From Escherichia phage MLP1, in sequence record NC_079176: a stretch of DNA of 51,940 bases. One strand, written 5' to 3'. Under the pieces are notes generated by a model that ran no database searches, was not told the origin of the DNA, and saw only the letters and a program-made list of their open reading frames with translations. Positions 11,571 through 49,056 of this stretch are shown here, one piece after another (within the stretch, counting starts at the first letter, position 1; each line of letters starts with the position of its first letter). Both the position numbers and the translations under genes were made by a program.

Positions 11571-11611
11571 AACATTATTTGAATATGTATTAATTTCAAT
11601 AGGTGTATAAC

Positions 11612-23468: not shown

Positions 23469-23537
23469 TCCCAATATTGCTACAATATTTAAAGTAGTAT
23501 TAGGAATGCGTAAAGTTCAAAACCAAGTGGTACATGG

Positions 23538-23591: not shown

Positions 23592-23678
23592 CCGGAATTT
23601 GTTCGAACAGTGGTCCGGCTATGTTATAAAAATTTTTATATAATTTTTTTTTTAATTTTAAATATTGTTACGGAATTA

Positions 23679-23730
23679 ATGAGACTCGAATTGTTTCAAT
23701 ATTAACGAGACTCAATCTGTGACAATATTA
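23679..23730 (+). repeat. tandem imperfect 26-bp direct repeat (about 20/26 identical)
   Basis: atgagactcgaattgtttcaatatta / acgagactcaatctgtgacaatatta, back to back. Confidence 0.5.
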
Positions 23731-23899
23731 TAATTTTATTTTTGGGCCAGCGGGGAGGGGGAAGTTGTGACATTATTATTTTAAAATTTTTATCTCCGAG
23801 GAGGGGAAGCCCAACGTCCTATCGGACTTAAATACGGTCCCTACCCCCAACTTTTTCCTGTAGCCTATCGGCTTTCAAACAACACCAAGTTAGGTAGTG

Positions 23900-23921
23900 G
23901 GTCAAGGTCAAGGTCAAAGTC
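23900..23921 (+). repeat. (GGTCAA)x3 tandem hexamer
   Basis: ggtcaaggtcaaggtcaaagtc read directly. Confidence 0.5.
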
Positions 23922-23955
23922 TCCGTGCTGTGCTAACAATGGCACAGGTTTGTGA

Positions 23956-23972
23956 TATTAGTTGGACGTGAA
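23956..23972 (+). promoter_or_regulatory. copy of recurrent 17-bp motif (tATTAGTTGGAcGTGAA), candidate phage promoter
   Basis: Member of an 8-copy family with consensus CATTAGTTGGATGTGAA, all in + orientation; 67 bp upstream of RNAP start. Confidence 0.4.
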
Positions 23973-24038
23973 TTGTGTAATGGCTACGCTATTATAATCC
24001 GTTTCATTCAAATCATACACAATCTTGGAGACTTACAA

Positions 24039-25979
24039 ATGACTACTATCACTACTCAAACTATCAAATCTGTTGTTCCTGCTATCACTGCTCTGGTATA
24101 CCGTGCCAAAGAGAAGCAGAACTACATGGTTCCACAGACTTGTGCTATTGCTGCCTTAGCCATATTCAAGATGATGACGTCTTTCACGCGTGATGACGTT
24201 ATTCCTGCTATCTCGATGGTTGAACTGGCTTCTGCTTCCATTGCTGATGCCAACCGTTACAACAACGACTTAAAGTCAATGCACTATGTTGACCCAGCTA
24301 TCAACCTCATTGGTTTGGCTAAACACTTCGGTTTCATCACCATGAACGAAGACAAATCGTTCCAGATGACTGATGCGTGGGTTGAACTGGTTACAACCAA
24401 AGATACCTCAGTTCCATTCACTGAGCGGGTAACAACTGAATCTCGTCGTAAGCCTTTCGTTAAGGGTGGCAAAGTTAAGCCATCCAAGACTCTGAAAGCT
24501 GCAATCGAATTCCTGCAAGATACTGAATATCACGTTGATGCAACAATGGTTAAGGTTATCTCTTCCATGTTAGAACAACGTACATTTGGTGGCTTACAGA
24601 TGCCAGAAGCAATCCAGACTGAACTCCATGTTTGGAACAATGCTGTAGCAATGGTTGGTCAGGACACTCTGTTCTCTGACTACTTTGCTGATAACCGTGG
24701 TCGTTTATATCACGTAGCATGTGCTGGTCCTAACCCACAATCATCTGACTTTGCTCGTTGCCTGTATTCCCACAATGTTGAGAACACTGTGAGCAAGTTT
24801 AATGCTGATGGTTCAACAACTCTGGCATACAACATGTTCATGCTTGAGCTGGAAGATATTGCTGGTGGAGACTGGACTTCTGCAAAACGTTTAACTTATG
24901 TTGCACAGAATCCTGCTGGTTCTTTGGCTCGTATGCTGAACATGCCTAAAGGTGAGCGTCCTTCCAAGCCATTCACTTATGTTCGTCTGGCTCTGGATTG
25001 GTTCAAGTTTGAGACTACAGGTGAGTGTGATTCTCGTGTAGGCTTTGGCTTAGATGCTAAATGTTCTGGTACTCAATACTTGGCATTCATTGCTGGTAAC
25101 ATGGAGATGGCTCGTGCAACAGGTCTGGTTGATTCTGAGACTAAAGCATCTGACCCATACCAGTTATCTCTTCGTGAACTGTTGAAGTTATTAGACCGTT
25201 CTTCAATGAAACCATCCGCTGAAATTATGGATGAATTCTTGAATCCGAAAGCTGGTCGTAAGTTTATCAAGACTCCATACATGGCTATTCAATATGGTGG
25301 TGGTAAAGCAGCATTAACTGGTTCTTCTGACTTCATTGCATACATGACAGAAGCTCTCCAGATTCCTATGGAGAAAGCTGATGCATTTGCTGAACTGTGT
25401 GTTGAAGCAATTCATAACGCATTGGGTGCTAAGATTAACATGTTCATTGAGAAAGCTGCTGATGCTGCATACAACCGTTGTGTTGAACTCAACAAAGAGT
25501 ACATCACATATAAGCACACTGATGGTCAAGTTGTAATGAAGCCTTGCTTCCCATCTCGTGATGTTTGTGATGCATTCAGCATTCGTGTTGACTCTCAAAC
25601 TCGTGTCATCTTTGGTCAGATTCAGGAAGAGAAACCTTGGACCATTCGTGAGTCCAATCCGACTAAAGAAGAATTCAAACGTACCTTCGTTGTTAACTAC
25701 ATTCAAGGTATTGACGCATTGGTTGCTCGTACTGTTGCAGTCAAAGCTAAAGAAGCTGGTCTTCGTGGCTTTACTTCAATTCACGACTGTTTCCGTTGCT
25801 GCTTAGCTGATGCTCCACTCATGATGGAAGTAATTCGTTCTGCTTATATTGAAATCTTTGTTAATAATAATCAGTTTGAATCTCTATCTAAGCAACTTGG
25901 TGGCATCAACATGTACCATGAGAACATCGTAACAGAAGAGCTTCTGATGAGCGAACACGCTTACTACTTCTGTCAATAA
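24039..25979 (+). CDS. single-subunit T7-type DNA-dependent RNA polymerase, compact form
   Basis: DAKCSGTQY (T7 motif A DGSCSGIQHF), RKFIKTPYMAIQYGGG (motif B), FTSIHDCF (motif C, T7 IHDSFG); ATG 24039 has GGAG ribosome-binding site; ORF track's upstream start at 23952 has none. Confidence 0.85.
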   Translation: MTTITTQTIKSVVPAITALVYRAKEKQNYMVPQTCAIAALAIFKMMTSFTRDDVIPAISMVELASASIADANRYNNDLKSMHYVDPAINLIGLAKHFGFITMNEDKSFQMTDAWVELVTTKDTSVPFTERVTTESRRKPFVKGGKVKPSKTLKAAIEFLQDTEYHVDATMVKVISSMLEQRTFGGLQMPEAIQTELHVWNNAVAMVGQDTLFSDYFADNRGRLYHVACAGPNPQSSDFARCLYSHNVENTVSKFNADGSTTLAYNMFMLELEDIAGGDWTSAKRLTYVAQNPAGSLARMLNMPKGERPSKPFTYVRLALDWFKFETTGECDSRVGFGLDAKCSGTQYLAFIAGNMEMARATGLVDSETKASDPYQLSLRELLKLLDRSSMKPSAEIMDEFLNPKAGRKFIKTPYMAIQYGGGKAALTGSSDFIAYMTEALQIPMEKADAFAELCVEAIHNALGAKINMFIEKAADAAYNRCVELNKEYITYKHTDGQVVMKPCFPSRDVCDAFSIRVDSQTRVIFGQIQEEKPWTIRESNPTKEEFKRTFVVNYIQGIDALVARTVAVKAKEAGLRGFTSIHDCFRCCLADAPLMMEVIRSAYIEIFVNNNQFESLSKQLGGINMYHENIVTEELLMSEHAYYFCQ

Positions 25980-26020
25980 CATTAATTGGTCAAGGATGAC
26001 CACAAACTTGGAGACTTAAA

Positions 26021-26119
26021 ATGAATACTCAACAAATCAAACAAATCGAAAATTGTTTCAATCCTCACCACACTTGCAGCATGATTGATTTATCTCGTCC
26101 TACAGTGGGGGGAGACTAA
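26021..26119 (+). CDS. small ORF (32 aa), hypothetical
   Basis: Initiation region CTTGGAGACTTAAAATG is near-identical to the RNAP one (CTTGGAGACTTACAAATG). Confidence 0.3.
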   Translation: MNTQQIKQIENCFNPHHTCSMIDLSRPTVGGD

Positions 26120-26227
26120 AGACTTCTTAGAATTGTTGTCAGAATATAAACAAGAGTCGCATGTATTATTGCACGCATTCTTGCATAATTCTGGATATTT
26201 CGATACAGAGATACCGTTCTGATATTT

Positions 26228-26250
26228 GGGAGCTTCGGCTCCCTTTTCTT
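26228..26250 (+). terminator. intrinsic terminator (GGGAGC-UUCG-GCUCCC then UUUUCUU)
   Basis: Perfect 6-bp GC stem, UUCG tetraloop, T-run; read directly. Confidence 0.55.
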
Positions 26251-26275
26251 GTTTCAACTAGTCTTAAGGTTGTAG

Positions 26276-26292
26276 CATTAGTTGCATGTGAA
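26276..26292 (+). promoter_or_regulatory. 17-bp motif copy CATTAGTTGcATGTGAA
   Basis: 24 bp upstream of ATG 26316. Confidence 0.4.
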
Positions 26293-26315
26293 TAACAAAC
26301 AATTTGGAGAATATC

Positions 26316-26480
26316 ATGTTCACAGTTCATTATCAAATAGTCGGCAAGTTTGAGAATTACGAAGAGTGCAATACATTAGCTGAAGCTCGTGCATTTGCTG
26401 CATCTTTAAAAGATACGGTATATGTTGATATTGTAGATGGTGATAAAGAGTATCCACTTGTAGCACCTGCATTACACTGA
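26316..26480 (+). CDS. small hypothetical protein (54 aa)
   Basis: GGAG ribosome-binding site 7 nt upstream; preceded by motif copy. Confidence 0.4.
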   Translation: MFTVHYQIVGKFENYEECNTLAEARAFAASLKDTVYVDIVDGDKEYPLVAPALH

Positions 26481-26531
26481 TTCCCAATATTCGAGCAATA
26501 TTACTGCATGTAGTATTGCTCCGATATTCGA

Positions 26532-26548
26532 CATTAGTTGGATGTGAA
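26532..26548 (+). promoter_or_regulatory. 17-bp motif copy CATTAGTTGGATGTGAA (consensus)
   Basis: Exact consensus. Confidence 0.4.
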
Positions 26549-27412
26549 GTAACAGAATACGGAGAAGTATTCCGCATGTCATGTTGAAATCATTCTAGAA
26601 ACATTTCAGCATGTCAACTAAACACACAGTGTTGTAATGATGTGGCAATCATTGAACTCCCTGTCTTTGGCCAGACAAAGTTCCAGCAACCATGTGTGAA
26701 GTAGGAATATTATTCGAAACTGTTCTTCAACCCAAGCATGTTCACTTGTTTCCAATTGAGCTTCATCTCCTATTATCAAGGCCCACCCACAAGCCGGGAG
26801 ATAACTTTGGCAAGACTGGAACTTTTGGACATGCTTCTTTCTTTCAATCAGAATTCGAAAGAAGAGAAGAGGTCGGACAATATGGCAACAGAGCATCGAG
26901 ATTAGTCTCGTAGCCGCCCCGATTTTGAGCAACAAATATTGTGGCAATATTGTCATAGTATGGCATGTAAATATTGCTACAAATTAGCATGTTAGAATGT
27001 GGCAGAATTGTTAGAGGACTAATCACCTCGAAGATACAATTGTCTACCAATCCGGCATGTTAATTTTGTAACAGTATTTGTGCCAATTTCGCATGTAATA
27101 AATGTATCAATATTCACCCAATATTCTTGCAACCCGCATGAATACTGGCTTCCAGCCAAGCGAAGGCTTTATCATCGCATGTAAATATTGTGACAATATT
27201 GGGATAAAACCCTTTATTTATTTCTGTAGTTTTTGTATTAAATGGTCGGTTTTCCGTACCTGTTGCGCCACTTCTTGATGTGCCAAATACATTCAAGGTG
27301 GGAGTAAACCTGTAATTAATGATGCATGTTTGATTGTGACTAAATTCGTCTATTTGGCAGATGAATTGGTTGCAATTAAGCATGTCCATTTATCATTAGT
27401 TGCATGTGAATA

Positions 27413-27429
27413 AGACCAAATCTCTGTAA
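27413..27429 (+). promoter_or_regulatory. 17-bp motif copy CATTAGTTGcATGTGAA
   Basis: Read directly. Confidence 0.4.
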
Positions 27430-27698
27430 ATTCTGCTGAAATTGTGTGACAGATTTTAGAGAGATTATGTCTCCAAGCTAATCATTGTAGTTTTCGGCAC
27501 TTAATGTGTCACATATATAGCCTGTGAAAAACGTGTGGTTTATTGCTGGATTGCAACGCGCCCACCAGACTAGGAAGTCCATGATGGCGGCACACACAGG
27601 AATACTATATAACTCCCTGATTCTTTAAGGTGGATTAAGGTAATACAAGACCTCCACAATCGTTATGACGGGAGTTTTCTTTTAACTTAGGAGAATAA

Positions 27699-27950
27699 AT
27701 GGATACCATCAACAAACGTGCAAAATTTGCTGACCTGTCAGAAGGTCAAATCTTCACTTACAATTCTATCAAATGTATTAAGGTGGAAGGTGAGTGTGGT
27801 TTATACAACACTGTAAGATTTCATGACTCAAGCCGTGCATGTAAACTTAAAGACAGTGATGTTGTTGAAATTGAAATCGAATTAGAGCCAGATGGTTCAA
27901 ATGATGAAATCATTCTGCGTAAAACTGTTGGATACACTAAAGGATTCTGA
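27699..27950 (+). CDS. hypothetical early protein
   Basis: Strong ribosome-binding site TTAGGAGAATAAATG. Confidence 0.45.
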   Translation: MDTINKRAKFADLSEGQIFTYNSIKCIKVEGECGLYNTVRFHDSSRACKLKDSDVVEIEIELEPDGSNDEIILRKTVGYTKGF

Positions 27951-27951
27951 A

Positions 27952-28194
27952 ATGAATTATGCACTATATCAATATATCAATCGTGATGGTGTTGTTTCTC
28001 ATGCTTTGGTTAATACTAAAACCAGAGCAATAATGTTGGCAGACTTAATGTCTGGTGCATCAATTTACGAAAACAAGCTGGTGTGGAAGAATGCAGCGTA
28101 TCCTGAATACGTTTGGCAAGCAATCCAGAATGACAAACATCACAAAGTTGTGGCAACTGCCGCACATCCAGATTTCCTGAAAGTAAGAGGTTAA
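27952..28194 (+). CDS. hypothetical early protein
   Basis: ATG immediately after upstream stop; track start 27892 overlaps upstream gene. Confidence 0.4.
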   Translation: MNYALYQYINRDGVVSHALVNTKTRAIMLADLMSGASIYENKLVWKNAAYPEYVWQAIQNDKHHKVVATAAHPDFLKVRG

Positions 28195-28195
28195 C

Positions 28196-28384
28196 ATGGA
28201 CTTCATCGTCTACTTTAAGTTAAATGGTGTAGAGCAAAGTTTGTACTTCAATTCTTTACTTCGTTTGCAACAGTGGGCGGAGAAGTTTGTTGGTTATGAC
28301 TTTGATTACATCAACGCATGTACACCTGATGAACATGAGGAAATTGTGTTCAGTTCATTAAATCAGATTCTGGAGGCAAAATGA
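28196..28384 (+). CDS. hypothetical early protein
   Basis: 62-aa ORF, tight packing. Confidence 0.4.
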   Translation: MDFIVYFKLNGVEQSLYFNSLLRLQQWAEKFVGYDFDYINACTPDEHEEIVFSSLNQILEAK

Positions 28385-28554
28385 ACGACCAGCAATTCAA
28401 CACATTAATGCAGCAGATTAATCATCAAGAACTGATGAATGCCATCGAAGGCAAGAAGCCCGTCGAACGTAAATATCGTAAAATTGATAATTATATGCCA
28501 ACAATCATTGCATGTGTTGGTGTTGCCCTTGTTCTCTACTTCCTGGTGAAATAA
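28381..28554 (+). CDS. small membrane protein (57 aa, C-terminal transmembrane helix)
   Basis: ATGA overlap with upstream stop; IIACVGVALVLYFLV hydrophobic tail; below the ORF-track length cutoff. Confidence 0.35.
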   Translation: MNDQQFNTLMQQINHQELMNAIEGKKPVERKYRKIDNYMPTIIACVGVALVLYFLVK

Positions 28555-28641
28555 TGGATATCGTAAAGAAATTAGTATTCTGCATTTTAATGTTTCCTCT
28601 GGTGCTGCTCGTTATGGGCAGCTTCATGTACTTTAACTAAT
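28555..28641 (+). CDS. tiny hydrophobic peptide (28 aa)
   Basis: MDIVKKLVFCILMFPLVLLVMGSFMYFN; starts on upstream stop. Confidence 0.25.
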
Positions 28642-28656
28642 ACCTTAGGAGTTATT

Positions 28657-28920
28657 ATGGCTACCAAAACAGGCATGATGATTGTCCCAAGCCGTAATAA
28701 CTCTTTAAGCGGCTTTACACCGTATCGCATCTATCGTGTAATCTCAGGGACTGGCGAAGCGAATCTTTCAGAAGTTGCTTTGAAGCTAGGCAGGATGGTC
28801 CACTCCGACATTTCCTGTAACGTGCTCGACGATGAGGGAAAGATACGATTTGTTACAATGGATTTCTTCCGTGAATTTAAATTAGAATCTGAATTAGGAG
28901 TTTTGTACCATGAAATTTAA
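28657..28920 (+). CDS. hypothetical early protein
   Basis: 87-aa ORF with AGGAG ribosome-binding site. Confidence 0.4.
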   Translation: MATKTGMMIVPSRNNSLSGFTPYRIYRVISGTGEANLSEVALKLGRMVHSDISCNVLDDEGKIRFVTMDFFREFKLESELGVLYHEI

Positions 28921-29137
28921 ATGTGTTGCTTCCACCAAAGACTACGTTCCAGTTGGCCTAATCATCGAGGGTGAAGCTGTTTCACCTTTGGAATTTAAAG
29001 TTACCAAATCTGCTGAGGAGTTCTCTCCAGCATTTCGTAAAGGTGCTGTTGTTCCTATGAATGGTGCATTCTGGACATGGCAGCGTGACCATCGTGCAGA
29101 GTTTGCAGATATTTGTGGACAAGGTGTATTACAATGA
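28910..29137 (+). CDS. hypothetical early protein, paralogue A
   Basis: MKFKCVASTKDYVPVGLIIEGEAV resembles the next gene's N-terminus. Confidence 0.4.
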   Translation: MKFKCVASTKDYVPVGLIIEGEAVSPLEFKVTKSAEEFSPAFRKGAVVPMNGAFWTWQRDHRAEFADICGQGVLQ

Positions 29138-29364
29138 CAAAGTTTAAATGTGTAAAATCGTCTTCTTCATCTGAATACGCTCCGAAAGTTGGAGATGTGA
29201 TTGAAGGAGAACTAATCCACATACAGAGAAAACATGGAATAGACTCTCGAATAGTTATTTCGAATGTTGGAGACCGAATAGCTGTAAATGGAAGACCTTA
29301 TTGGAGCATTGGTGAAAAAGTTCCGCTAAAAGGTAGCATCTGGATTTGGAAAGAAGTCAAATAA
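29134..29364 (+). CDS. hypothetical early protein, paralogue B
   Basis: MTKFKCVKSSSSSEYAPKVGDVIEGELI; ATGA overlap; AAGGTG ribosome-binding site. Confidence 0.4.
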   Translation: MTKFKCVKSSSSSEYAPKVGDVIEGELIHIQRKHGIDSRIVISNVGDRIAVNGRPYWSIGEKVPLKGSIWIWKEVK

Positions 29365-29427
29365 TTTCCTCAACCATTCTTATAATGAGAGTGGTTGCTG
29401 AATATTATTAATTAACTTGGAGCATTT

Positions 29428-29715
29428 ATGAAACAACGTACTCGTTTACAACGTGACCCAGCCACAGGTCGCTTGTTGCCAGCATACTTGAAAGTTGGTG
29501 ACTTAGTTTACACTCGCGACTTTGCTTTTGATATTTGCCCAAGCAAAGTTTATGTAGTTCTTGCCACCAGCCTATCAAAGCCCAAAGTGCTGTTTGGTGC
29601 ACTTGAGCCAATTCAGTTGACCGGAACTCAATTTGTAATTAAAGATGAATCTGGTTGTAACCGTATCTTCAATCTCGAAGGTGGTTTGTCTAAATGGGAG
29701 AAAATTAAGCAATGA
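29428..29715 (+). CDS. hypothetical early protein
   Basis: 95-aa ORF with GGAG ribosome-binding site. Confidence 0.4.
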   Translation: MKQRTRLQRDPATGRLLPAYLKVGDLVYTRDFAFDICPSKVYVVLATSLSKPKVLFGALEPIQLTGTQFVIKDESGCNRIFNLEGGLSKWEKIKQ

Positions 29716-29999
29716 ACAAGAATTCGATTTTACGTTATGTTGGTGAAACCAATCACTACTTCACCAAAGGTAAGAAATACAAAGTCGTCGCTGGTCGTGG
29801 TGACGGTGTTCCCCGCAACAATGGTACACTCGGTGCGTATATTCAATCTCATTTGGGTTTTGTCGTTAATGATGATAACCTCAATTTATCTTATCGTACA
29901 TTCTCCAATTTGTGGGAGCTTGTGAAAGATTCTGGCGAAGTAAGCTGGTATAAGCCTGAATCAAATATGGACCCAATTCCTATTTCAAAGGTGATGTGA
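29712..29999 (+). CDS. hypothetical early protein
   Basis: ATGA overlap. Confidence 0.4.
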   Translation: MNKNSILRYVGETNHYFTKGKKYKVVAGRGDGVPRNNGTLGAYIQSHLGFVVNDDNLNLSYRTFSNLWELVKDSGEVSWYKPESNMDPIPISKVM

Positions 30000-30002
30000 G
30001 GA

Positions 30003-30107
30003 TTGAATATTAAATACCTAATACTGACACTTACTATTAGCGTTGCTATACTTACGATTGTTATAGGCTTTGCCAACCTGCTGCTATTACAAGCAGGAAT
30101 ATAAACT
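30003..30107 (+). CDS. possible tiny membrane peptide (34 aa, TTG start)
   Basis: Hydrophobic LILTLTISVAILTIVIGFANLLLL; non-ATG start, weak support. Confidence 0.2.
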
Positions 30108-30158
30108 GGCGCGTTAAATTAACAAGGAGCATTCATTGAGTGTTCCTGATTAATTCAA

Positions 30159-30175
30159 CATTAGTTGGATGTGAG
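30159..30175 (+). promoter_or_regulatory. 17-bp motif copy CATTAGTTGGATGTGAg
   Basis: 75 bp upstream of the SSB-tail gene. Confidence 0.4.
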
Positions 30176-30249
30176 AGAGACAAAGCTATTCCGTGGTTAG
30201 CAATGTCGCTGAAACTTAAACCGTAAATTAACTTAAGAGAATCTTAATC

Positions 30250-30627
30250 ATGGCACAATATTCAGACGTAAACACTGGCATCATCGGTTCCAATGGCTTC
30301 AAGAAAGACCCAAAACATCCTGACGTTCGTGGACGTATTAACGTTGACGGAATCTGGTATTGGGTGTCTGGTTGGAACAAGCAAGCCAATGGTAATGAAT
30401 TTACCTCGCTGGCACTCACCATCATGACTCAAGAACAGGTCGATGAAATGTTGCGTAAGCGTGAAGAGAAAGCTAAAGCCAAAGCTCAACCTCAAGCCGC
30501 AGCTCAACAGCACCAGCAAACTCAGCAACCTACTGCACAACAGCAAGCACCTGCCCAGCAACAGCCTCAGAGCAGTAACTATAATCCGAACGAGCCGAAA
30601 GACTTCGACGACGATATTCCATTCTAA
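30250..30627 (+). CDS. small protein with the host SSB C-terminal tail (ends DFDDDIPF)
   Basis: Last 8 residues match the E. coli SSB C-terminal tip; preceded by a Gln/Ala/Pro-rich low-complexity linker and a 70-aa Trp/Gly-rich N-terminal domain. Confidence 0.6.
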   Translation: MAQYSDVNTGIIGSNGFKKDPKHPDVRGRINVDGIWYWVSGWNKQANGNEFTSLALTIMTQEQVDEMLRKREEKAKAKAQPQAAAQQHQQTQQPTAQQQAPAQQQPQSSNYNPNEPKDFDDDIPF

Positions 30628-30640
30628 TTGGAGATGCCCT

Positions 30641-30760
30641 ATGAAAATTTTATGTTTTATAGGGCTACATAATTGGGAGATTTCTCATACAAACGATTAT
30701 GTAACCTTTTGGGTGTGTAAGCACTGTTCAGTAATGCGTGAGGAATATCATGGCAATTAG
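30641..30760 (+). CDS. small Cys/His-containing protein (39 aa)
   Basis: LCF..H..H....CKHC; below ORF-track cutoff. Confidence 0.25.
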   Translation: MKILCFIGLHNWEISHTNDYVTFWVCKHCSVMREEYHGN

Positions 30761-31655
30761 TGTTATCGAAATACCTGCAAATTTGGTCAAAACTGGCGAT
30801 GTTGTATTTCATGATGGCAGAGGGTATCCGATTGTCCACATCAACAGACTTAGTGATGTAGTTCAGCTACAACACTCTGGCGGATTCTTTAATTTTGAGT
30901 TGGGCCGTATAGTCAGAATATTAGACAAACGTCCCACTACAGAATCTTTTACAAAGCCTACCACAACCCGTGCAGTATTGGCGCATGAAGTACGACCTGG
31001 GAACATCTTATCTTACGGAATCAGATTCTTTGAGATAAAGGAAGTTAAAGACCTTGGGGAAATACCTGAAAATGTGGTTCGATTAACCCATGTAACAGGA
31101 TACTTTGACTTTTCACCCAACCGCATAGTCCACATTGTTAATACGCCACCAGCACAGGAAACTCCTACGGTGAAGTTCGATACTCAGATAAAGCCAGTAT
31201 TCCTTCCATATGAGGAAGCAGTGAAACCATTCTCAGATGAAGAGGATGTTAAAGGTGCTGATGTGGAAGTTGGTGATGTTATCTGGTTTAAGGGTAATTG
31301 GGCAACTGTTACAAATGTGTACAAGCACCCAAACTCACCATACAATAAAGTCAATATCGAACACGGCGACGTAAAAGGTTTGCAAGTACGTCTGGTATTA
31401 ACTGGAACTTATTCAAGAAAGGTAAGAGCAGTAATGGAAACTTTAAATATCCAAAATGCAATCGAAGCACAACGTATTCTTCTGCAAAAGCTAGAGCAAA
31501 TGCTTGACTTACAGCAACTTGCACCAACAGCAGATGGCAAGATTGCAATCGGCAACTGTAACATTCGCGTGGACAAGGCATCAATCGTTAAAGCCGCACG
31601 GGATGAAATGAAAGTTGCCGCAAGCAAATCCGCAGAGCTTATTAAGAAGCTGTAA
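30750..31655 (+). CDS. hypothetical protein (about 301 aa)
   Basis: ATG 30750 with GAGGAA ribosome-binding site; track start is GTG 30738. Confidence 0.45.
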   Translation: MAISVIEIPANLVKTGDVVFHDGRGYPIVHINRLSDVVQLQHSGGFFNFELGRIVRILDKRPTTESFTKPTTTRAVLAHEVRPGNILSYGIRFFEIKEVKDLGEIPENVVRLTHVTGYFDFSPNRIVHIVNTPPAQETPTVKFDTQIKPVFLPYEEAVKPFSDEEDVKGADVEVGDVIWFKGNWATVTNVYKHPNSPYNKVNIEHGDVKGLQVRLVLTGTYSRKVRAVMETLNIQNAIEAQRILLQKLEQMLDLQQLAPTADGKIAIGNCNIRVDKASIVKAARDEMKVAASKSAELIKKL

Positions 31656-31699
31656 TTAACAGAGGTCATTCCACTTCGAGTGGCCTCGATTAATTATTA

Positions 31700-31709
31700 G
31701 GGGGGGGGG
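31700..31709 (+). repeat. poly-G tract (G10) in the Shine-Dalgarno position of the next gene
   Basis: Counted directly; 4 nt upstream of ATG 31714. Confidence 0.6.
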
Positions 31710-31713
31710 AATT

Positions 31714-31935
31714 ATGGCAAGTTATTATGCGACAATGCTTACACGAGATTTGAAAGGTGAGTTGAGCGATGCTTGTGGTAGCTTTGGAAATATAGCTATC
31801 GACGGAAGACTGACTTTGCAAAATGCTATTTCAGTTGCTAGAGAAAGTCTTTCAAAAGAGAGTGGATACGAGGGATTTAAAATAGAACTCTTATCCAGAC
31901 CTTGGGCATATAGAAATCCACTTGTAACGAAGTAG
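31714..31935 (+). CDS. hypothetical protein
   Basis: 73-aa ORF. Confidence 0.35.
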   Translation: MASYYATMLTRDLKGELSDACGSFGNIAIDGRLTLQNAISVARESLSKESGYEGFKIELLSRPWAYRNPLVTK

Positions 31936-31937
31936 TC

Positions 31938-32288
31938 ATGAAAACTTTATACATTGCACTAACAATTTTGTTTGGAGTATTCGCATTCAAATCAGAAGCA
32001 TCTGTTCGCAGCTTCCAGTGTGGCGGGTACAAAATGTCCGTTGAAACAATTACAATGAGCCAGCCGCTCATTGCAACAATTTCTTTGCACGAAGGTACTT
32101 GGATTGAGATTCCAGATAACGGAAACCCCAACCCAATGTCAACAGTGTTTTACAATACACAGAGCAGTAAGCTGGCCTTAGTTGGTGTTGACGCTGAGGA
32201 ACGTTTGGTGCTGCAGATTTACCGTGACATTGACTTCTTTCATGCCAAATTTCCATTGTTATCAACCTATTGTAAGGAAGTTAAATGA
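31938..32288 (+). CDS. secreted/periplasmic hypothetical protein
   Basis: N-terminal signal-like MKTLYIALTILFGVFAFKSEASV. Confidence 0.4.
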   Translation: MKTLYIALTILFGVFAFKSEASVRSFQCGGYKMSVETITMSQPLIATISLHEGTWIEIPDNGNPNPMSTVFYNTQSSKLALVGVDAEERLVLQIYRDIDFFHAKFPLLSTYCKEVK

Positions 32289-32518
32289 CGTCATCCGAAT
32301 TTACCATTGATGGGGTTCAATACCTGCTGGAATCCAATTGCGAGTATCGCCATTGGGCAGTAATTCACGACCGAGTTGTAAAATACTTGGAACGTGTGGG
32401 GAAGGAAACTGCTAAACCTATGTTGTTTGAGGCAACAGTTATTGGAACAACCTCAATCAATAAGGAGTTAGTATCCTTCAAATTAACCATTCACCCTAGT
32501 GGGAATAGCTTTCAATGA
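32285..32518 (+). CDS. hypothetical protein
   Basis: ATGA overlap. Confidence 0.35.
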   Translation: MTSSEFTIDGVQYLLESNCEYRHWAVIHDRVVKYLERVGKETAKPMLFEATVIGTTSINKELVSFKLTIHPSGNSFQ

Positions 32519-32790
32519 TTTCAATTGACCAAGTTCCAGTTGAGTTGAGTAAGGCAAAAGGTAAGTTGGACAATGCCAAATCCGACTTGTCGACCTTTGA
32601 TTTAAATGCTCCAGCCGATAAAGTTAAAGTTTTCATCGACTGTATTGACGGATGGGTGCTTATTGAGCATGGAGTCCTTCGAGCATTACTTGTTGATGAA
32701 GTTGCCAAGGCTCAGAAAGCATTTGATGAACTTGATAACCTCAACACACTGTTAAACAATACTTTAAACGATGCGTTAAAGGGTAAATAA
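32515..32790 (+). CDS. hypothetical protein
   Basis: ATGA overlap; helical and charged. Confidence 0.35.
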   Translation: MISIDQVPVELSKAKGKLDNAKSDLSTFDLNAPADKVKVFIDCIDGWVLIEHGVLRALLVDEVAKAQKAFDELDNLNTLLNNTLNDALKGK

Positions 32791-33185
32791 TGAATGTTAA
32801 GCTCGGTCAACGTTCTTTAGACCGACTTAAGGGAGTAAATCCTTCATTAGTTGCAGTTTTCAAACGGGCATGTGAAACCATGCCTTTTGATGTAACTGTT
32901 TTGGAAGGTTTACGCTCTTATGAACGTCAACAAGAACTGTTAAAGCAGGGTGCAACCAAAGTTTCTGTTAGCCGACACATGTCAGGCAACGCTTTGGACA
33001 TTGCACCATATCCAATTGACTGGAATGACCTTGAACGATTCCAAATTGTGGCTGAACACATGTTCAAAGCCGCAGAAGAGCTTGGAATTACTATTCGTTG
33101 GGGTGGAACATGGGAACGTTCATTCACTAAGCCAGTGAAATGGGCTAAATTCCTTGACGCACCTCATTTCGAACTTCCAGCATAA
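32790..33185 (+). CDS. peptidase M15 endolysin (L-alanyl-D-glutamate peptidase, T5-type)
   Basis: SRHMSGNALDIAPYPIDWNDLERF and GITIRWGGTW align with T5 endolysin GDAIDFAPYINGKIDWNDLEAF and GIKLRFGADW. Confidence 0.7.
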   Translation: MNVKLGQRSLDRLKGVNPSLVAVFKRACETMPFDVTVLEGLRSYERQQELLKQGATKVSVSRHMSGNALDIAPYPIDWNDLERFQIVAEHMFKAAEELGITIRWGGTWERSFTKPVKWAKFLDAPHFELPA

Positions 33186-33205
33186 CTTCATCAATGGAGC
33201 ATCCG

Positions 33206-33484
33206 ATGGAATATCAGGAAATACCGAAAGAATTAGAGCGTATGCAGGAGCGTACGTCTCGTGCAGAGGCAGAACTCCACCAACATTTGTCAAATCATGT
33301 GCAAGATTCCCGTAGTCTGAGACACGAAATTGAGGTTGGCAGATGCTGCTATCTAGTAACATATGAAGAGAAGACCGCCATCCTGGACATACTAGTAAAG
33401 GGCGGGAAAGGGCGAATCGAACAGCTCAAAATCCTTAATATGGAACTTCAAGGTATGTGGGAGAAACTCAATGCAAAACGATAA
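33206..33484 (+). CDS. hypothetical protein
   Basis: ATG 33206 has GGAG ribosome-binding site (track start 33194 lacks one). Confidence 0.35.
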   Translation: MEYQEIPKELERMQERTSRAEAELHQHLSNHVQDSRSLRHEIEVGRCCYLVTYEEKTAILDILVKGGKGRIEQLKILNMELQGMWEKLNAKR

Positions 33485-34019
33485 CATTACTAAAGCAGTG
33501 GAACAACTTAAGTCCTGGCGTAGAGATGAAACATTATTGGTTCGTTTCTACACAGGCGAAACTAATTCTGAATTTGAAGATGCGTGGATTGATGGTCTGG
33601 CATGGCGGCTCTATGACTTCAACATGTCAGAATATTTGCACGAAGAATATGGCATCGAGTACCCAGAAACAGGGACTTATGACATTCTCGAATCAAACGA
33701 AGAAGATGTTACAGAAATTTGCTTTGTTGATGGACTGTTCAGCATTCGCAGATATGACAAGTTCAACGAACTGCTTACTGACACTGACTTGGATATAATT
33801 CTTGCTGCATTCCGTAGCGATGAAATTGACATTTTCACTGTTGACGACTTGAACGACATGTTCATCACACGTTGCGACTCAATTGCAGACTATTTCAAGC
33901 AAAGTGAAGCACTGGATATTCCAGACCGCCTTGCACCATACATTGATTGGGAAGCAATTGTGAAAGACTTCGGCAGTGACTACATCTTCTCCGAAGGAGT
34001 ATTGTTCTTAAATGTGTGA
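33471..34019 (+). CDS. ardA: ArdA-like antirestriction protein (acidic DNA mimic), tentative
   Basis: Strongly acidic 182-aa protein; C-terminal YIDWEAIVKDFGSDYIFSEGVLF resembles the ArdA C-terminal block as recalled from memory. Confidence 0.45.
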   Translation: MQNDNITKAVEQLKSWRRDETLLVRFYTGETNSEFEDAWIDGLAWRLYDFNMSEYLHEEYGIEYPETGTYDILESNEEDVTEICFVDGLFSIRRYDKFNELLTDTDLDIILAAFRSDEIDIFTVDDLNDMFITRCDSIADYFKQSEALDIPDRLAPYIDWEAIVKDFGSDYIFSEGVLFLNV

Positions 34020-34248
34020 TTTAAATATTAACTCGGTCAAGCCAGAAGATATTCTCTTCCACCAGCCACGCGGCCACTACTATCGAATCCTGTTTGCTAC
34101 AAAGATTAAAACTCACTGCGGTCAGTGGGTAGATGGTTTTGCTTACCAGGAAGTTAAGAAGTATGGAAATCATACTTTCTTTGGTGTTGATTCGATAATT
34201 TATTCAAGACCAAAGGAACTGTTTGACTCAGATTGGAAAACACTATAG
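34012..34248 (+). CDS. hypothetical protein
   Basis: 78-aa ORF overlapping upstream stop. Confidence 0.35.
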   Translation: MCDLNINSVKPEDILFHQPRGHYYRILFATKIKTHCGQWVDGFAYQEVKKYGNHTFFGVDSIIYSRPKELFDSDWKTL

Positions 34249-34318
34249 TTCCAGGCGGGTTTCTTCGAAGTGCCAAGCGGGTTTTGTACTCGCATTGGCC
34301 TTCGGCTTTAGTCTGAAA

Positions 34319-34334
34319 CATTAGTGGGATTTGA
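34319..34334 (+). promoter_or_regulatory. diverged 17-bp motif copy (CATTAGTgGGATtTGA)
   Basis: Shares TCTGAAACATTAGT upstream context with the 34463 copy. Confidence 0.3.
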
Positions 34335-34462
34335 TTCTGACCTCTTAGGGAAGAAAGGCATTATACACCTATCGCCAAATGGGTGTCAAGAACTTTCTTC
34401 ATTTATTTTAATTTATTCTTATTATTATTCTTTTTGTTTGGAATATTGGAATAATTCTGAAA

Positions 34463-34479
34463 CATTAGTTGGAATTGAA
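34463..34479 (+). promoter_or_regulatory. 17-bp motif copy CATTAGTTGGAaTTGAA
   Basis: Lies in an 860-bp ORF-poor gap, about 630 nt upstream of the next gene. Confidence 0.35.
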
Positions 34480-35112
34480 GAAACAACATCATGTAAGCAA
34501 ATTGACTTCGTGTAGAAATCTACACTGGATTACAGGTTCGATGCCTGTGGGAAGTTAGTTTGCTTTCAGATGGAATGTTTCCATCAAATACACTTATCTT
34601 TTAACATAGGCCAAAGGGCCAGAATACTTCTTCGCAGAAGCTATCCACTTGTTATAGGTCAATGTATTGGGATGAATTGGTACTGAATAAGCAAGCTGTT
34701 AGGGCTGAATAATTAGAGGGTTATGCCTCATGCTTATGTTAGTCATTCGAAAATAGGTTTGTGCCACAAGCCGCTGGTGCTCCGAGAAAGTCGGACAAAC
34801 AGGGCTTAGAGTGGCATATTCCACACAAAACCGAGCCACCAGCTACGCCAACGCTGGGATTTGGGTGAATGTATTGGGGGAGGATTATAAAGCCTCTGTG
34901 GACTGTATGTGAATCCTAAGCACCAGTTGCCGAAGGGCTACAGGACGCACCCTAACGGGAATAATCCTCCACCAATGCAGTTATCCAGAATTGACACAAA
35001 CGGTAGGCAGCGGCCCGATTTTCGGCCTTCCTGCGCTACTCTGTGGCCTGTTTCATGGCCAAAAGATGAGAAGAGAAGTCACAAACACTGAATCGAAAAT
35101 TGGAGAGTTCCT

Positions 35113-35433
35113 ATGATTCGCAAGCATTCTGCTAAAGTTTTGACATTAAGAAATGTATTAACGTCCGTTCTAAGTGGGGAAGGTGAGGAAGAAACAATCC
35201 ACTTCGTCCTTGTTGGTGGACTTTGGTACTACAACGGCACCAACGACTTTACAGTAGGAATTTCGGAGAAAGATGGGTTCTGGAAGCACACTTTCAAAGA
35301 CATACTCGAAAGCAGTGCTAAATACACACTTGGGGAAGTTAAGAAATACTTCTACCTCGGGCCAAACAAGTCCATGCAAATTGCAACTCGCGAGTGGACA
35401 ACTAACCAAGAAGTTTACGGAGTCCCATTTTGA
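35113..35433 (+). CDS. hypothetical protein
   Basis: GGAG ribosome-binding site. Confidence 0.4.
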   Translation: MIRKHSAKVLTLRNVLTSVLSGEGEEETIHFVLVGGLWYYNGTNDFTVGISEKDGFWKHTFKDILESSAKYTLGEVKKYFYLGPNKSMQIATREWTTNQEVYGVPF

Positions 35434-35720
35434 ACTTACAAGACAAATCCAAAGAAGAGTTGATTGAGATTATCCAGAAAGAGCACGAACTCGCTGGCAT
35501 CACAATTAACTTTGAACTCCAGGCAATGCAAGCTGTTGCTTTGGGTCATGGCCTAATGGCTACACTCATTCATGCCAAGAATGTGTTAGGCGTTAACGAC
35601 GAAAAATACCAAATTCTGGAGAAAGCTGCGCAAGAGCGGATTTCGCAGTGCTTGGTTACATTAGTTGATTTGGGAATCGACGCAGAAACTGCGAACAAAC
35701 GTATCCTACAAGGCCACTAA
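35430..35720 (+). CDS. hypothetical protein (TTG start overlapping upstream stop)
   Basis: tTGA overlap, same coupling pattern as at 4401. Confidence 0.3.
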   Translation: MNLQDKSKEELIEIIQKEHELAGITINFELQAMQAVALGHGLMATLIHAKNVLGVNDEKYQILEKAAQERISQCLVTLVDLGIDAETANKRILQGH

Positions 35721-35721
35721 A

Positions 35722-36396
35722 ATGTCTTATCATGATGATGACAAAGAGATTGCACTATCAACGTGCAAGCAATGGCTCAATGATAATGATGCCGTCTATC
35801 TTGCCAAGGAAGATGTTATCATTATGTGGGTCCATTTTAATCCAGAATCGAAGCGCGGTGAGTGGCAACGTTACAAGATGAAAGAGGCTTGTCGCATAAT
35901 TAAAGCCACACGCGCTGGCTTCTCTGCTATGAAATATATCAAGCCAGAGATGCTGATGCTTGCTGCACAGGAAGAAGAACGTGCATATAAGCAAGCTGTT
36001 AAATCCCGTTCAACTGTTCCTCCAGAGTTCTTTAATTTGGAGCGCGCTGGTCACTTCAACAATTTAGAAATGTTGACACTGTGCCTGTTGCAAGAATTAG
36101 TTGGAAGAGGACAAAACATTGAAGCTGTTTGCCTTGGGGAACTCATGAAAGAGTTGTTCTTGACAAAGGGCTTTGCTGTACCAAACCGAACTTTACGCTG
36201 GAAATTGTTGCGAGCAGTCGCGCAAGAAGCTGGTGTAGTTGTTCGTGACAGAACCAACCGACTTACCATTACGGGAGTTGGGCGTTTTGTAGCAATCCAG
36301 ATTGAGGGTTATGACGAATCAATCATCACTGAACTCACTGTCGCTGAGACAAAGGATTTGGTAATCAAAACAATCGAACGATTCAATATGTATTGA
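35722..36396 (+). CDS. hypothetical protein (224 aa)
   Basis: ATG directly after upstream stop; track start 35665 overlaps upstream gene. Confidence 0.4.
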   Translation: MSYHDDDKEIALSTCKQWLNDNDAVYLAKEDVIIMWVHFNPESKRGEWQRYKMKEACRIIKATRAGFSAMKYIKPEMLMLAAQEEERAYKQAVKSRSTVPPEFFNLERAGHFNNLEMLTLCLLQELVGRGQNIEAVCLGELMKELFLTKGFAVPNRTLRWKLLRAVAQEAGVVVRDRTNRLTITGVGRFVAIQIEGYDESIITELTVAETKDLVIKTIERFNMY

Positions 36397-36426
36397 GTCG
36401 TTTGTTAAATCAGAGCAGTCCTGACA

Positions 36427-36443
36427 CATTAATTGGATGTGAA
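36427..36443 (+). promoter_or_regulatory. 17-bp motif copy CATTAaTTGGATGTGAA
   Basis: 78 bp upstream of ATG 36521. Confidence 0.4.
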
Positions 36444-36520
36444 AAGAGAAAGGCTCTTTAATTTTATCTACAGTCACGTCACCGTGGCGTGCAAAACTAT
36501 TTAATATAAGGTATATACAA

Positions 36521-36859
36521 ATGGCTAAGATTGTAACCGTAACTCAGTACGAAGCTAACGATGGTTCCCTGTTCCTGAGCGAAGCTGAGTGTAACGCACA
36601 CGATTTTAAACTGGAAAACGGCGCTAAAATTGATGCTGCTGTTGAAGCGTTCGCAAACACCAACAAACTGATTGACCGTTCTCGCTCAATGCAGACCAAT
36701 ACCGCTGCTGCATTCCTGGCATTCTATCTGCCGTGGGTTGAAGCCGGTTGTCCGGAAGTTGAACGTGTTGCGTTCGACACCGTGAAAGAAGTTAAGGTCG
36801 AAGAAGAAGCTGCTGTTGCAGTAGCAGAAGCTGCTGTTGAAGAAGCTCCGGTATTCTAA
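36521..36859 (+). CDS. abundant-looking small protein with acidic C-terminal tail ending in Phe
   Basis: Codon choice like highly expressed E. coli genes (CTG, CGT, GAA, ACC); C-terminus VEEEAAVAVAEAAVEEAPVF; motif plus AAGGT ribosome-binding site upstream. Confidence 0.5.
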   Translation: MAKIVTVTQYEANDGSLFLSEAECNAHDFKLENGAKIDAAVEAFANTNKLIDRSRSMQTNTAAAFLAFYLPWVEAGCPEVERVAFDTVKEVKVEEEAAVAVAEAAVEEAPVF

Positions 36860-43915: not shown

Positions 43916-44160
43916 TGCGTGTTTTAGCTCTATACGACAAACAACAGATGGAACTTCATCAAGCGGCTGGAGATATTCCGGCCACAGAATTGGCGGTGTC
44001 TGCAATTGAGATGCACGCCTCGGCATTATTTGGAAGTGATTATCAGGGCGATATTACCTATGAAGGTGCCCTGAAAGCATTAAAGGAATCGAAAGATTTC
44101 GCAGTAACACAATCTATCCTGTCCGACCTGGACATTGACTCTCACATTATTGAAATTTAA
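43915..44160 (+). CDS. small acidic hypothetical protein
   Basis: ATG overlaps polymerase stop; Asp/Glu-rich. Confidence 0.4.
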   Translation: MRVLALYDKQQMELHQAAGDIPATELAVSAIEMHASALFGSDYQGDITYEGALKALKESKDFAVTQSILSDLDIDSHIIEI

Positions 44161-48870: not shown

Positions 48871-49056
48871 ATGCGCACAATTCAATGTAGTAACTGTCAT
48901 TACGAAGTGGCAGAGGATGATTTCATCACTCAGCAATGTCCTATCTGTGATTCATTCATGCCACTAAATCGGCTGATTTTAAAAGCTGATTCTAGTTTGG
49001 GCAACATCATTCGCATCAATCCCGTGCAAACTCAGCCATTAGTGGATTGTGATTAA
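48871..49056 (+). CDS. small zinc-ribbon protein
   Basis: CSNCHYEV...CPICDSF. Confidence 0.4.
   Translation: MRTIQCSNCHYEVAEDDFITQQCPICDSFMPLNRLILKADSSLGNIIRINPVQTQPLVDCD

What the first reader, a model, noticed from the sequence alone, without database searches (positions are those of the whole stretch)
23956..36443. Eight copies of a 17-bp motif (consensus CATTAGTTGGATGTGAA), all in the early region
Copies at 23956, 26276, 26532, 27413, 30159, 34319, 34463 and 36427 share orientation and mostly sit 20-80 bp upstream of start codons. That fits a promoter family for the phage RNAP, but one copy precedes the RNAP gene itself, so host RNAP or another factor may be involved. No copy was seen in the structural or replication modules, which implies a second, unrecognised late-promoter class.
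Basis: seen in the sequence. Interest (0 to 1): 0.5.

Follow-up and report, generated by a model that had tools for sequence, protein, structure and literature searches.

The report
Known phage RNA-polymerase promoter motif, rediscovered
The repeated 17-base motif is real and is almost certainly the promoter read by this phage's own small T7-like RNA polymerase, but the same motif was already annotated as "putative phage promoter" in the closely related phage phiEcoM-GJ1, so it is an ordinary, still untested, feature.

Summary
The window is a whole genome of a phiEcoM-GJ1-like myophage (Chaseviridae, 87-93% identical to known isolates). CATTAGTTGGATGTGAA occurs 9 times at up to 3 mismatches, all on the + strand, against 0.33 expected. 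One reader coordinate is wrong: 27413 should be 27394. One copy was missed, at 44024.

GenBank EF460875 (GJ1) already annotates these sites as "putative phage promoter 1-9". No experimental test turned up, and the 2022 ICTV profile says the family's promoters are "not yet identified".

Comparative evidence supports the promoter reading. The motif is the top de novo repeat in five further genera. It sits at the same gene junctions as the conserved island in diverged spacers. Its core persists in metagenomic relatives whose polymerase is only 42-55% identical, and it is absent where the polymerase is more distant.

The copy before the polymerase gene is conserved in all lineages. It lies inside the inferred 3-kb terminal repeat, so it most likely gives self-amplifying expression.

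Degenerate but conserved copies exist before the terminase gene (49037) and the baseplate genes (11573). The inference of a separate late-promoter class is therefore not supported.

Verdict: real, already known, modest interest.

The parts
23956..23972 (+). Motif copy TATTAGTTGGACGTGAA (2 mismatches), 66 nt upstream of the RNAP start codon and inside the inferred terminal repeat
   Evidence: Orthologous copies lie upstream of the RNAP gene in GJ1 (572), 4HA13 (123), PM1 (185) and PA_03 (173), with a degenerate copy in Y2. L010, L011 and L012 also have copies there. This copy is not annotated in GJ1.
24039..25979 (+). Single-subunit T7-like RNA polymerase gene (646 aa), the presumed reader of the motif
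   Evidence: Pfam PF00940, E 1.3e-17. T7 RNAP motifs A and C align. AlphaFold model pLDDT 91.4. Foldseek hits T7 RNAP at E 2e-19, TM 0.58-0.62.
26228..26253 (+). Intrinsic terminator GGGAGCTTCGGCTCCC followed by a T-run, closing the RNAP operon 23 nt before the next motif copy
   Evidence: sequence.
26276..26292 (+). Motif copy CATTAGTTGCATGTGAA (1 mismatch), 23 nt before the ATG of a 54-aa ORF
26532..26548 (+). Perfect consensus copy, equal to GJ1 'putative phage promoter 1', followed by a leader conserved across genera
27394..27410 (+).
30159..30175 (+). Motif copy (1 mismatch), 74 nt upstream of the SSB gene, equal to GJ1 'promoter 3'
   Evidence: An orthologous copy lies before the SSB gene in all six genera.
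34319..34335 (+). Motif copy (3 mismatches), first of a tandem pair, equal to GJ1 'promoter 4'
34463..34479 (+). Motif copy (2 mismatches), second of the tandem pair, equal to GJ1 'promoter 5'
36427..36443 (+). Motif copy (1 mismatch), 77 nt before ORF 36521-36859, equal to GJ1 'promoter 7'
   Evidence: Orthologous copies in all six genera.
44024..44040 (+).
   Evidence: Copies in GJ1 (21899) and 4HA13 (21701).
49037..49053 (+). Degenerate copy CATTAGTGGATTGTGAT, 22 nt before the terminase start and preceded by hairpin 48832-48851; candidate late promoter
   Evidence: Same junction in GJ1, 4HA13 and PA_03. Individually not significant.
11573..11589 (+). Degenerate copy CATTATTTGAATATGTA in the spacer between the tape-measure-like gene and the baseplate hub gene, directly after terminator hairpin 11540-11563; equal to GJ1 'promoter 9'
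   Evidence: Orthologous copies in GJ1, 4HA13, PM1 and PA_03.
36095..36111 (+). AATTAGTTGGAAGAGGA inside ORF 35722-36396, equal to GJ1 'promoter 6'; doubtful, since its conservation may simply reflect the protein sequence
23828..26870 (.). Inferred direct terminal repeat (collapsed to one copy in this assembly); it contains the RNAP gene and motif copies 23956, 26276 and 26532
   Evidence: Homology to the PhageTerm-annotated repeats of Mangalitsa (1-3234) and 4HA13 (1-3120), mapped by blastn. The RNAP gene matches twice in the Y2 and PM1 records.

Best explanation
The 17-mers are promoters for the phage's own 646-aa single-subunit (T7-type) RNA polymerase, encoded at 24039-25979. All steps below are inferred; none has been shown experimentally.

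1. Host RNA polymerase first transcribes the polymerase gene, probably from sigma-70-type promoters just outside the terminal repeat.
2. That transcript stops at the hairpin terminator at 26228.
3. The phage enzyme then binds the asymmetric box C-A-T-T-A-G-T-T-G-G-(N3)-T-G-A-A. It starts RNA synthesis at or just after the 3' end of the box, in a purine-rich stretch such as GAAACA or GTAACA. It transcribes rightward through blocks of co-oriented genes.
4. Near-consensus copies drive the early and middle (DNA-metabolism) blocks.
5. Off-consensus copies before the terminase gene (49037) and the baseplate genes (11573), together with read-through, serve the late genes.
6. The copy 66 nt upstream of the polymerase gene gives positive feedback. 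It is the only recognisable promoter in front of the left-end copy of that gene in the terminally repeated virion DNA.
For: Statistics: 9 co-oriented copies against 0.33 expected. The motif is the top de novo repeat family. Seven or eight of the nine copies are intergenic in a genome about 88% coding.

Cognate enzyme: the polymerase matches Pfam RNA_pol, shares T7 motifs A and C, and gives a confident model with a T7 RNAP fold. An invariant F-G beta-hairpin region lies where the T7 specificity loop lies.

Layout: hairpin terminators lie directly upstream of copies 26276 and 11573, and about 185 nt upstream of 49037.

Prior annotation: the same 20-mers are annotated 'putative phage promoter 1-9' in EF460875.

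Conservation across genera:
- The motif is the top or a top de novo family in GJ1, 4HA13, PM1, Y2 and Proteus PA_03.
- It sits at the same gene junctions in these genomes.
- Between-genus identity is 0.80 in the motif against 0.36-0.40 in the flanks. This includes positions 14-15 (0.93 and 1.0), which were not used to pick the sites.

Tracking of the polymerase clade:
- The TTAGTTGG...TG core persists in metagenomic relatives with 42-55% identical RNAP (L009-L012).
- It is absent from L013 and L014 and from the Nefertitivirinae (L007, L008), whose loop region differs.
- The exact 17-mer in 2.9 million viral contigs hits almost only contigs of 51-57 kb, several with the exact lengths of known Chaseviridae genomes.

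Not a host promoter: no -10 element lies at a fixed distance downstream and the motif has no dyad symmetry (sequences).

From my own knowledge of the SP6 promoter (ATTTAGGTGACACTATAGAAG): an ungapped alignment shares TTAG-TG upstream and GAA at +1 to +3. That places the start just after the 17-mer.
Against: - No transcript 5' ends or in vitro transcription data exist in the searched literature.
- The base after the motif is T in four copies, which is unusual for a T7-type start.
- Consensus copies cluster in the early and middle region, while late copies are degenerate. This is the opposite of T7, where late promoters are the strongest.
- The sites for the conservation test were partly chosen by matching positions 1-9, which biases that half of the comparison.
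- Covariation between the loop region and the 3' half of the motif is only qualitative.
Confidence: 0.8

Rival explanations
1. One reading: the motif is an early and middle promoter class only, and a second, unrecognised late-promoter class drives the replication and structural genes.
For: Only two off-consensus copies (49037, 11573) serve about 26 kb of late genes. Late copies share deviations, such as A at position 10 and a 3' end of ...TGTA or ...TGAT.
Against: The de novo search finds no other intergenic repeat family; the remaining families are coding low-complexity repeats such as CTGCTGCTG. The late region has almost no intergenic space (gaps listed). All genes are co-oriented, so read-through is possible. 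The degenerate copies sit at conserved junctions directly after terminators.
Confidence: 0.08
2. The motif is a binding site for another protein, either a phage activator or a host factor, that redirects host RNA polymerase. This would resemble T4 MotA boxes and would not involve the phage polymerase.
For: A copy precedes the RNAP gene itself. The motif contains a -35-like TTGGAT or TTGCAT. ICTV regards the true promoters as unidentified.
Against: No -10-like element lies at a fixed distance downstream of any copy (sequences). The motif has no dyad symmetry. Its 17-20 nt length and strict directionality match T7-type promoters. It tracks the RNAP clade across 42-100% identity and is lost where the RNAP loop region changes.
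Confidence: 0.08
3. The motif has a non-transcriptional role, such as a replication, primase or packaging signal.
For: Three copies lie in the terminal repeat. A tandem pair (34319 and 34463) flanks an AT-rich stretch that could be an origin.
Against: Copies are spread over 20 kb and more. They lie directly upstream of ribosome-binding sites and after terminators, always on the coding strand. That distribution is typical of promoters, not of a single-site signal.
Confidence: 0.03

Closest known systems
'Putative phage promoter 1-9' of Escherichia phage phiEcoM-GJ1 (GenBank EF460875; Jamalludeen et al. 2008, AEM 74:516)
   Same: Same sequence family. The 20-mers annotated in GJ1 contain the 17-mer, and six of the eight reader copies, plus 44024, 11573 and 36095, are positional orthologues.
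   Different: This genome has a strong extra copy at 26276, where GJ1 has a degenerate CATTAGTTGTTAATGAA. The copy upstream of the RNAP gene (GJ1 572) and the one before the terminase gene (GJ1 26984) are not annotated in GJ1. All remain computational predictions.
T7-group promoters (T7, T3, SP6, K11), the promoters of single-subunit phage RNA polymerases
   Same: A conserved, asymmetric box of about 17-23 nt on the coding strand, repeated 9-17 times per genome. It is read by a T7-fold polymerase that has a specificity-loop-like hairpin, and terminator-promoter pairs occur. From my own knowledge of those sequences, the ATTAG/TTTAG element at -16 to -12 and the GAA start resemble SP6 and K11.
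   Different: - The polymerase is about 240 aa shorter than T7 RNAP, mostly in the N-terminal region.
- There is no TATA-like -4 to -1 block.
- The conserved half is the 5' half, while the 3' half varies between lineages.
- The best copies are in the early and middle region rather than the late region.
- The host phage is a myovirus with a 3-kb terminal repeat that carries the polymerase gene.
T7 phiOL, a T7 RNAP promoter near the left genome end, upstream of the host-transcribed early region (Dunn and Studier 1983; cited from my own knowledge)
   Same: A phage-polymerase promoter placed upstream of the polymerase gene near the left end, which allows the phage enzyme to transcribe its own gene.
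   Different: Here the copy lies 66 nt from the RNAP start codon, inside a long terminal repeat. It is conserved in all lineages, with two or three tandem copies in some (L011, L012).

Membership tests
phiEcoM-GJ1-type putative phage promoters (Carltongylesvirus / Cleopatravirinae) | Sequence matches the annotated GJ1 20-mers (..CATTAGTTGGATGTGAA) | tested here: met
   GJ1 promoters 1-5 and 7-8 differ by 0-3 bases from the window copies.
phiEcoM-GJ1-type putative phage promoters (Carltongylesvirus / Cleopatravirinae) | Same genomic junctions as in relatives (after the RNAP gene, before the SSB gene, after the ArdA block, before the hub gene) | tested here: met
   orthologous sites in six genera.
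Promoters of T7-type single-subunit RNA polymerases | A cognate single-subunit RNAP is encoded in the same genome | tested here: met
Promoters of T7-type single-subunit RNA polymerases | A conserved asymmetric motif of about 17-23 nt, repeated on the coding strand, intergenic and upstream of gene blocks | tested here: met
Promoters of T7-type single-subunit RNA polymerases | The motif changes together with the polymerase (specificity loop) among relatives | tested here: inconclusive
   The core is kept wherever the loop strand reads SIRV, SIRL or AIRV, and is lost where it reads SLFL or SIRY. The 3' half and the following loop residues both vary. The comparison is qualitative, and no residue-to-base mapping was made.
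Promoters of T7-type single-subunit RNA polymerases | Transcription initiates at a fixed position relative to the motif, by the phage enzyme alone and resistant to rifampicin | not testable with these tools
   No transcript data were found, and no paper in the library reports a test.
Sigma-70 host promoters | -35 and -10 hexamers separated by 16-18 nt | tested here: not met
   No -10 element lies 16-18 nt after the TTGGAT or TTGCAT in any copy. None of the motif copies appears in the sigma-70 scan.
Activator-box middle promoters (T4 MotA type) | An activator box at about -30 plus a host -10 element at a fixed distance | tested here: not met
   The sequence downstream of the motif is purine-rich and lacks a conserved TAnnnT.

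The most novel reading that the evidence does not exclude
The CATTAGTTGG box is the invariant upstream promoter element of a compact (about 640 aa) single-subunit RNA polymerase clade. That clade spans lytic Chaseviridae and integrase-carrying, prophage-like relatives down to about 42% polymerase identity, with a lineage-specific 3' half. In virion DNA the left-end copy of the polymerase gene has no host promoter. It is therefore switched on only by its own product through the conserved upstream copy, forming an autocatalytic loop built into a 3-kb terminal repeat. If so, this would be a polymerase-promoter system that differs from the T7 paradigm in architecture, and a candidate small orthogonal expression system.
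Probability: 0.35. Interest if true: 0.45.

Novelty: already known. Interest (0 to 1): 0.25.

Why it matters
The motif itself has been annotated since 2007-2008, so finding it again adds little. The residual value is threefold.

1. The ICTV profile still lists Chaseviridae promoters as unidentified. The cross-genus and metagenomic conservation shown here gives a precise, cheap test: purified 646-aa polymerase on a CATTAGTTGGATGTGAA template.
2. The conserved copy in front of the polymerase gene, inside the terminal repeat, suggests self-amplifying polymerase expression that has not been annotated.
3. A polymerase about 27% smaller than T7 RNAP, with a defined 17-nt promoter, could be useful as an orthogonal transcription tool.

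Tried and rejected
- A brute-force all-against-all 18-mer comparison timed out. It was replaced by a shift-based search.
- The primary GJ1 paper (PMC2223254) and the Y2 paper (PMC3165370) are not held. What GJ1's authors proposed is therefore taken from the GenBank record only.
- A full-text search for the motif string returned only unrelated primer sequences.
- The 2025 NAR study that mined promoters of single-subunit polymerases does not cover this family.
- ARAGORN and Rfam at gathering thresholds found nothing in the window. An E-value scan gave only a sub-threshold tRNA-like hit.
- Counts from the sigma-70 consensus scan are not above the shuffles in any region, so host promoters cannot be assigned statistically. 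The scan of the right end of 4HA13 found no strong + strand sigma-70 promoter. The 'host promoters just outside the repeat' step therefore rests on the GJ1 annotation and a 9-of-12 match.
- I considered the GCATGT elements as truncated promoter copies or as the true polymerase promoters. I rejected this as the main explanation because they cluster in one 1.2-kb non-coding stretch and do not precede genes.
- The copy at 36095 (GJ1 'P6') is not counted as a promoter, because its conservation can be explained by the protein it encodes.


Full report
**What the window is**

A megablast of 23000-37000 finds 68 phage records. The best are 87-93% identical over 80-94% of the query: Escherichia phages TH24, EcoM1, Bp10 and phiEcoM-GJ1, and the Yersinia PYps phages. 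These are Chaseviridae of the genus Carltongylesvirus. The portal gene is split across the two ends of the window. The window is therefore a circularly permuted whole genome, and GJ1 position 1 corresponds to about 23384.

**The observation**

- CATTAGTTGGATGTGAA at up to 3 mismatches gives 9 hits, all on the + strand. The mean in 100 shuffles is 0.33 and the largest value is 2.
- Seven reader coordinates are exact. The copy given as 27413 is really at 27394. A ninth copy at 44024 was missed.
- An unsupervised 18-mer search allowing 3 mismatches recovers the same nine sites as the largest family in the genome.
- A position weight matrix adds weaker + strand sites at 49037, 11573 and 36095.
- With a crude gene call (88% coding), seven or eight of the nine strong copies are intergenic. 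The rest have leaders of 140-600 nt.

**It is already annotated**

GenBank EF460875 (phiEcoM-GJ1) carries nine 'putative phage promoter' features plus one putative sigma-70 promoter upstream of the RNAP gene. Extracting them shows the same motif at orthologous places. GJ1 P1 equals 26532, P2 equals 27394, P3 equals 30159, and P4 and P5 equal 34319 and 34463. P6 equals 36095, P7 equals 36427, P8 equals 44024 and P9 equals 11573.

[quoted passage not shown] I found no experimental test. The primary paper is not held.

**The polymerase**

- ORF 24039-25979 encodes 646 aa and matches Pfam RNA_pol.
- It aligns to T7 RNAP around motif A (LDAKCSGTQ against FDGSCSGIQ) and motif C (IHDCF against IHDSF).
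- An AlphaFold model built on 56 homologues is confident (pLDDT 91.4). Foldseek gives T7 RNAP as the best match (E 2e-19, TM 0.58-0.62).
- The protein is about 240 aa shorter than T7 RNAP, mostly at the N-terminus.
- Residues about 505-540 form beta-hairpins with an invariant F-G just upstream of the segment that aligns to T7 776-841. This is where the T7 specificity loop lies.

**Comparative test**

I fetched one genome from each of five other Cleopatravirinae genera: 4HA13, PM1, Y2, Proteus PA_03 and GJ1. I also fetched two Nefertitivirinae.

- The CATTAGTTGG family is the top or near-top de novo family in every Cleopatravirinae genome and is absent from the Nefertitivirinae.
- Copies sit at the same junctions: upstream of the RNAP gene, after the RNAP gene, before the SSB gene, before the orthologue of ORF 36521, in the spacer before the baseplate hub gene, and before the terminase gene.
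- With sequences anchored on the motif, between-genus pairwise identity is 0.80 inside the 17-mer and 0.36-0.40 in the 40-nt flanks. Positions 14 and 15, which were not used to pick the sites, score 0.93 and 1.0. Positions 1-9 are biased by how the sites were chosen.

Metagenomic RNAP homologues gave loci with 41-55% identical enzymes.

- L010 has CATTAGTTGnnnATGGagaata six times.
- L012 has CATTAGTTGGnnnTGRR.
- L011 has CATTAGTAGGnTTTGGA seven times.
- L009 has nnTTAGTTGGnnnTGAA.
- In each of these, copies lie both upstream and downstream of the RNAP gene.
- L013 and L014 (41% identity) lack the motif, and their loop strand reads SLFL instead of SIRV, SIRL or AIRV.

The core therefore follows the polymerase clade, and the 3' half varies with lineage. 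This covariation is qualitative only. The exact 17-mer occurs in just 13 stretches of 2.9 million viral contigs. Nearly all are on contigs of 51-57 kb, several with the exact lengths of known Chaseviridae genomes.

**Layout consistent with promoters**

- A strong hairpin terminator (26228, GGGAGCTTCGGCTCCC plus a T-run) closes the RNAP operon 23 nt before copy 26276.
- Hairpin 11540-11563 directly precedes copy 11573.
- Hairpins at 45046 and 48832 punctuate the replication and late boundary.
- Nothing like a -10 element follows the motif at a fixed distance, and the motif is not a palindrome. Sigma-70 promoters and MotA-type promoters are therefore excluded.
- The sequence after the motif is purine-rich (GAAACA, GTAACA, AGAGAC).
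- From my own knowledge of the SP6 promoter, an ungapped alignment shares TTAG-TG and GAA and places +1 just after the 17-mer. The true start is unknown.

**The copy before the polymerase gene**

This copy is conserved in GJ1, 4HA13, PM1 and PA_03 and is degenerate in Y2. It is also present in L009-L012, sometimes in two or three tandem copies.

Mangalitsa and 4HA13 carry PhageTerm-annotated direct terminal repeats of 3234 and 3120 bp that include the RNAP gene. The RNAP gene matches twice in the Y2 and PM1 records. Mapping the repeat boundaries onto the window gives about 23828-26870.

The homologue of the sigma-70 promoter annotated in GJ1 (window 23702-23731, a 9-of-12 match) lies outside this repeat. 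In virion DNA the left-end RNAP gene would therefore have only the phage-type copy upstream. This suggests host-driven expression of the right-end copy followed by self-amplification. It is an inference, and the host promoters are weakly supported.

**Late genes**

Copy 44024 is in the replication module, 49037 precedes the terminase gene, and 11573 precedes the baseplate genes. The last two are conserved across genera. No other intergenic repeat family appears in the de novo search, and the late region has almost no spacers. Read-through from co-oriented upstream promoters plus these weaker copies is sufficient. A modified late specificity cannot be excluded.

**Verdict**

The motif is real and the promoter reading is well supported by comparison (confidence about 0.8).

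The side observations are less well known than the finding itself. They are:
- the GCATGT array;
- the palindromes flanking the terminal repeat;
- a perfectly conserved antisense sigma-70 promoter;
- prophage-like relatives.

Noticed in passing
window 26159-27402 (+ strand): Fourteen of the genome's 24 + strand GCATGT hexamers lie in this 1.25-kb, largely non-coding stretch after the RNAP operon. The extended consensus is about GCATGTnAnnTTG..CAAtaTT. A same-orientation array of 9-17 copies sits at the same place in GJ1, 4HA13, PM1, Y2, PA_03, L009, L010 and L012, and is absent from the Nefertitivirinae. The array straddles the inferred right boundary of the terminal repeat. Its function is unknown; it could be an origin or primase-site array, a packaging or repeat-processing signal, or host promoters.
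   Followed up: partly
window 23473-23777 and 26486-27200: Near-palindromes of the type AATATTG-N3-CAATATT (perfect at 27184: AATATTGTGACAATATT) cluster in two zones that flank the two boundaries of the inferred terminal repeat. The same element recurs in GJ1, 4HA13 and L009. It may be an operator for an early-promoter regulator, or a signal for terminase or repeat-boundary processing.
   Followed up: partly
window 34389..34360 (minus strand): A perfect sigma-70 consensus promoter, TTGACA-N18-TATAAT with an extended -10 (TGTATAAT), points against all genes. It lies between the tandem phage-promoter copies 34319 and 34463, next to an AT-rich stretch (34390-34440). Both hexamers are perfectly conserved in GJ1, 4HA13 and PM1 while the spacer diverges, which is the signature of a functional host promoter. 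It may make an antisense RNA of about 230 nt (a minus-strand hairpin lies at 34127-34114), or it may activate an origin.
   Followed up: partly
window ~23828-26870: This is the inferred 3-kb direct terminal repeat, collapsed in this assembly. It contains the RNAP gene and three promoter copies. The left terminus lies at ...cctatcggac|TTAAATACGGTCCC. An inverted repeat, CTTCTTTCTTTC...GAAAGAAGAGAAG, sits at the right boundary.
   Followed up: partly
window 26549-26585: The leader after promoter 26532, GTAACAGAATACGGAGAAGTATTCCGCATGTCAT, contains a small hairpin and is conserved across four or five genera. The block GCATGTCAT is invariant in all six genomes. No ORF follows for more than 140 nt.
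   Followed up: no
window 36860-39061 and 34516-35112: These are unusually long stretches without convincing ORFs, downstream of promoters 36427 and 34463. A sub-threshold tRNA-like hit lies at 37754-37809 (25.6 bits against a gathering score of 29), where GJ1 annotates a 'tRNA-Arg, may contain an intron'. ARAGORN finds no tRNA. A tRNA-like T-arm, ACAGGTTCGATGCCTGT, lies at about 34530.
   Followed up: partly
L012 (ena:ERZ27241861 k141_20933), L010, L009: Relatives with the same RNAP type, the same promoter core and the GCATGT array carry integrase genes. L012 is integrated next to bacterial T6SS (VipA/VipB) and chemoreceptor genes. Further homologues lie in the Hafnia, Lelliottia and Pseudomonas chromosomes (P0074, P0079, P0108). 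Temperate, prophage-like cousins of the strictly lytic Chaseviridae therefore exist.
   Followed up: no
L008 (Aeromonas phage pAh6-C) 19996, 20753, 21340, 25141; L007 (Vibrio phage VPs20) 2473, 3555, 5107, 20997: Nefertitivirinae lack the CATTAGTTGG motif but have their own repeats just after the RNAP gene. In pAh6-C this is a small hairpin, GGCTCTNCGAGCC followed by AAAG. In VPs20 it is CTCGCCCACTAGAATTTG. These are candidate promoters for their divergent RNAP.
   Followed up: no
window 31700-31709: A run of ten G lies in the spacer just before ORF 31714-31935, after hairpin 31662-31687. It may be a slippage-prone tract or an assembly artefact.
   Followed up: no
window 23928-23947: A hairpin, CTGTGCTAACAATGGCACAG, lies immediately upstream of the RNAP-proximal motif copy and is conserved in GJ1. 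It sits between the putative host promoter and the RNAP gene and may act as an attenuator.
   Followed up: no
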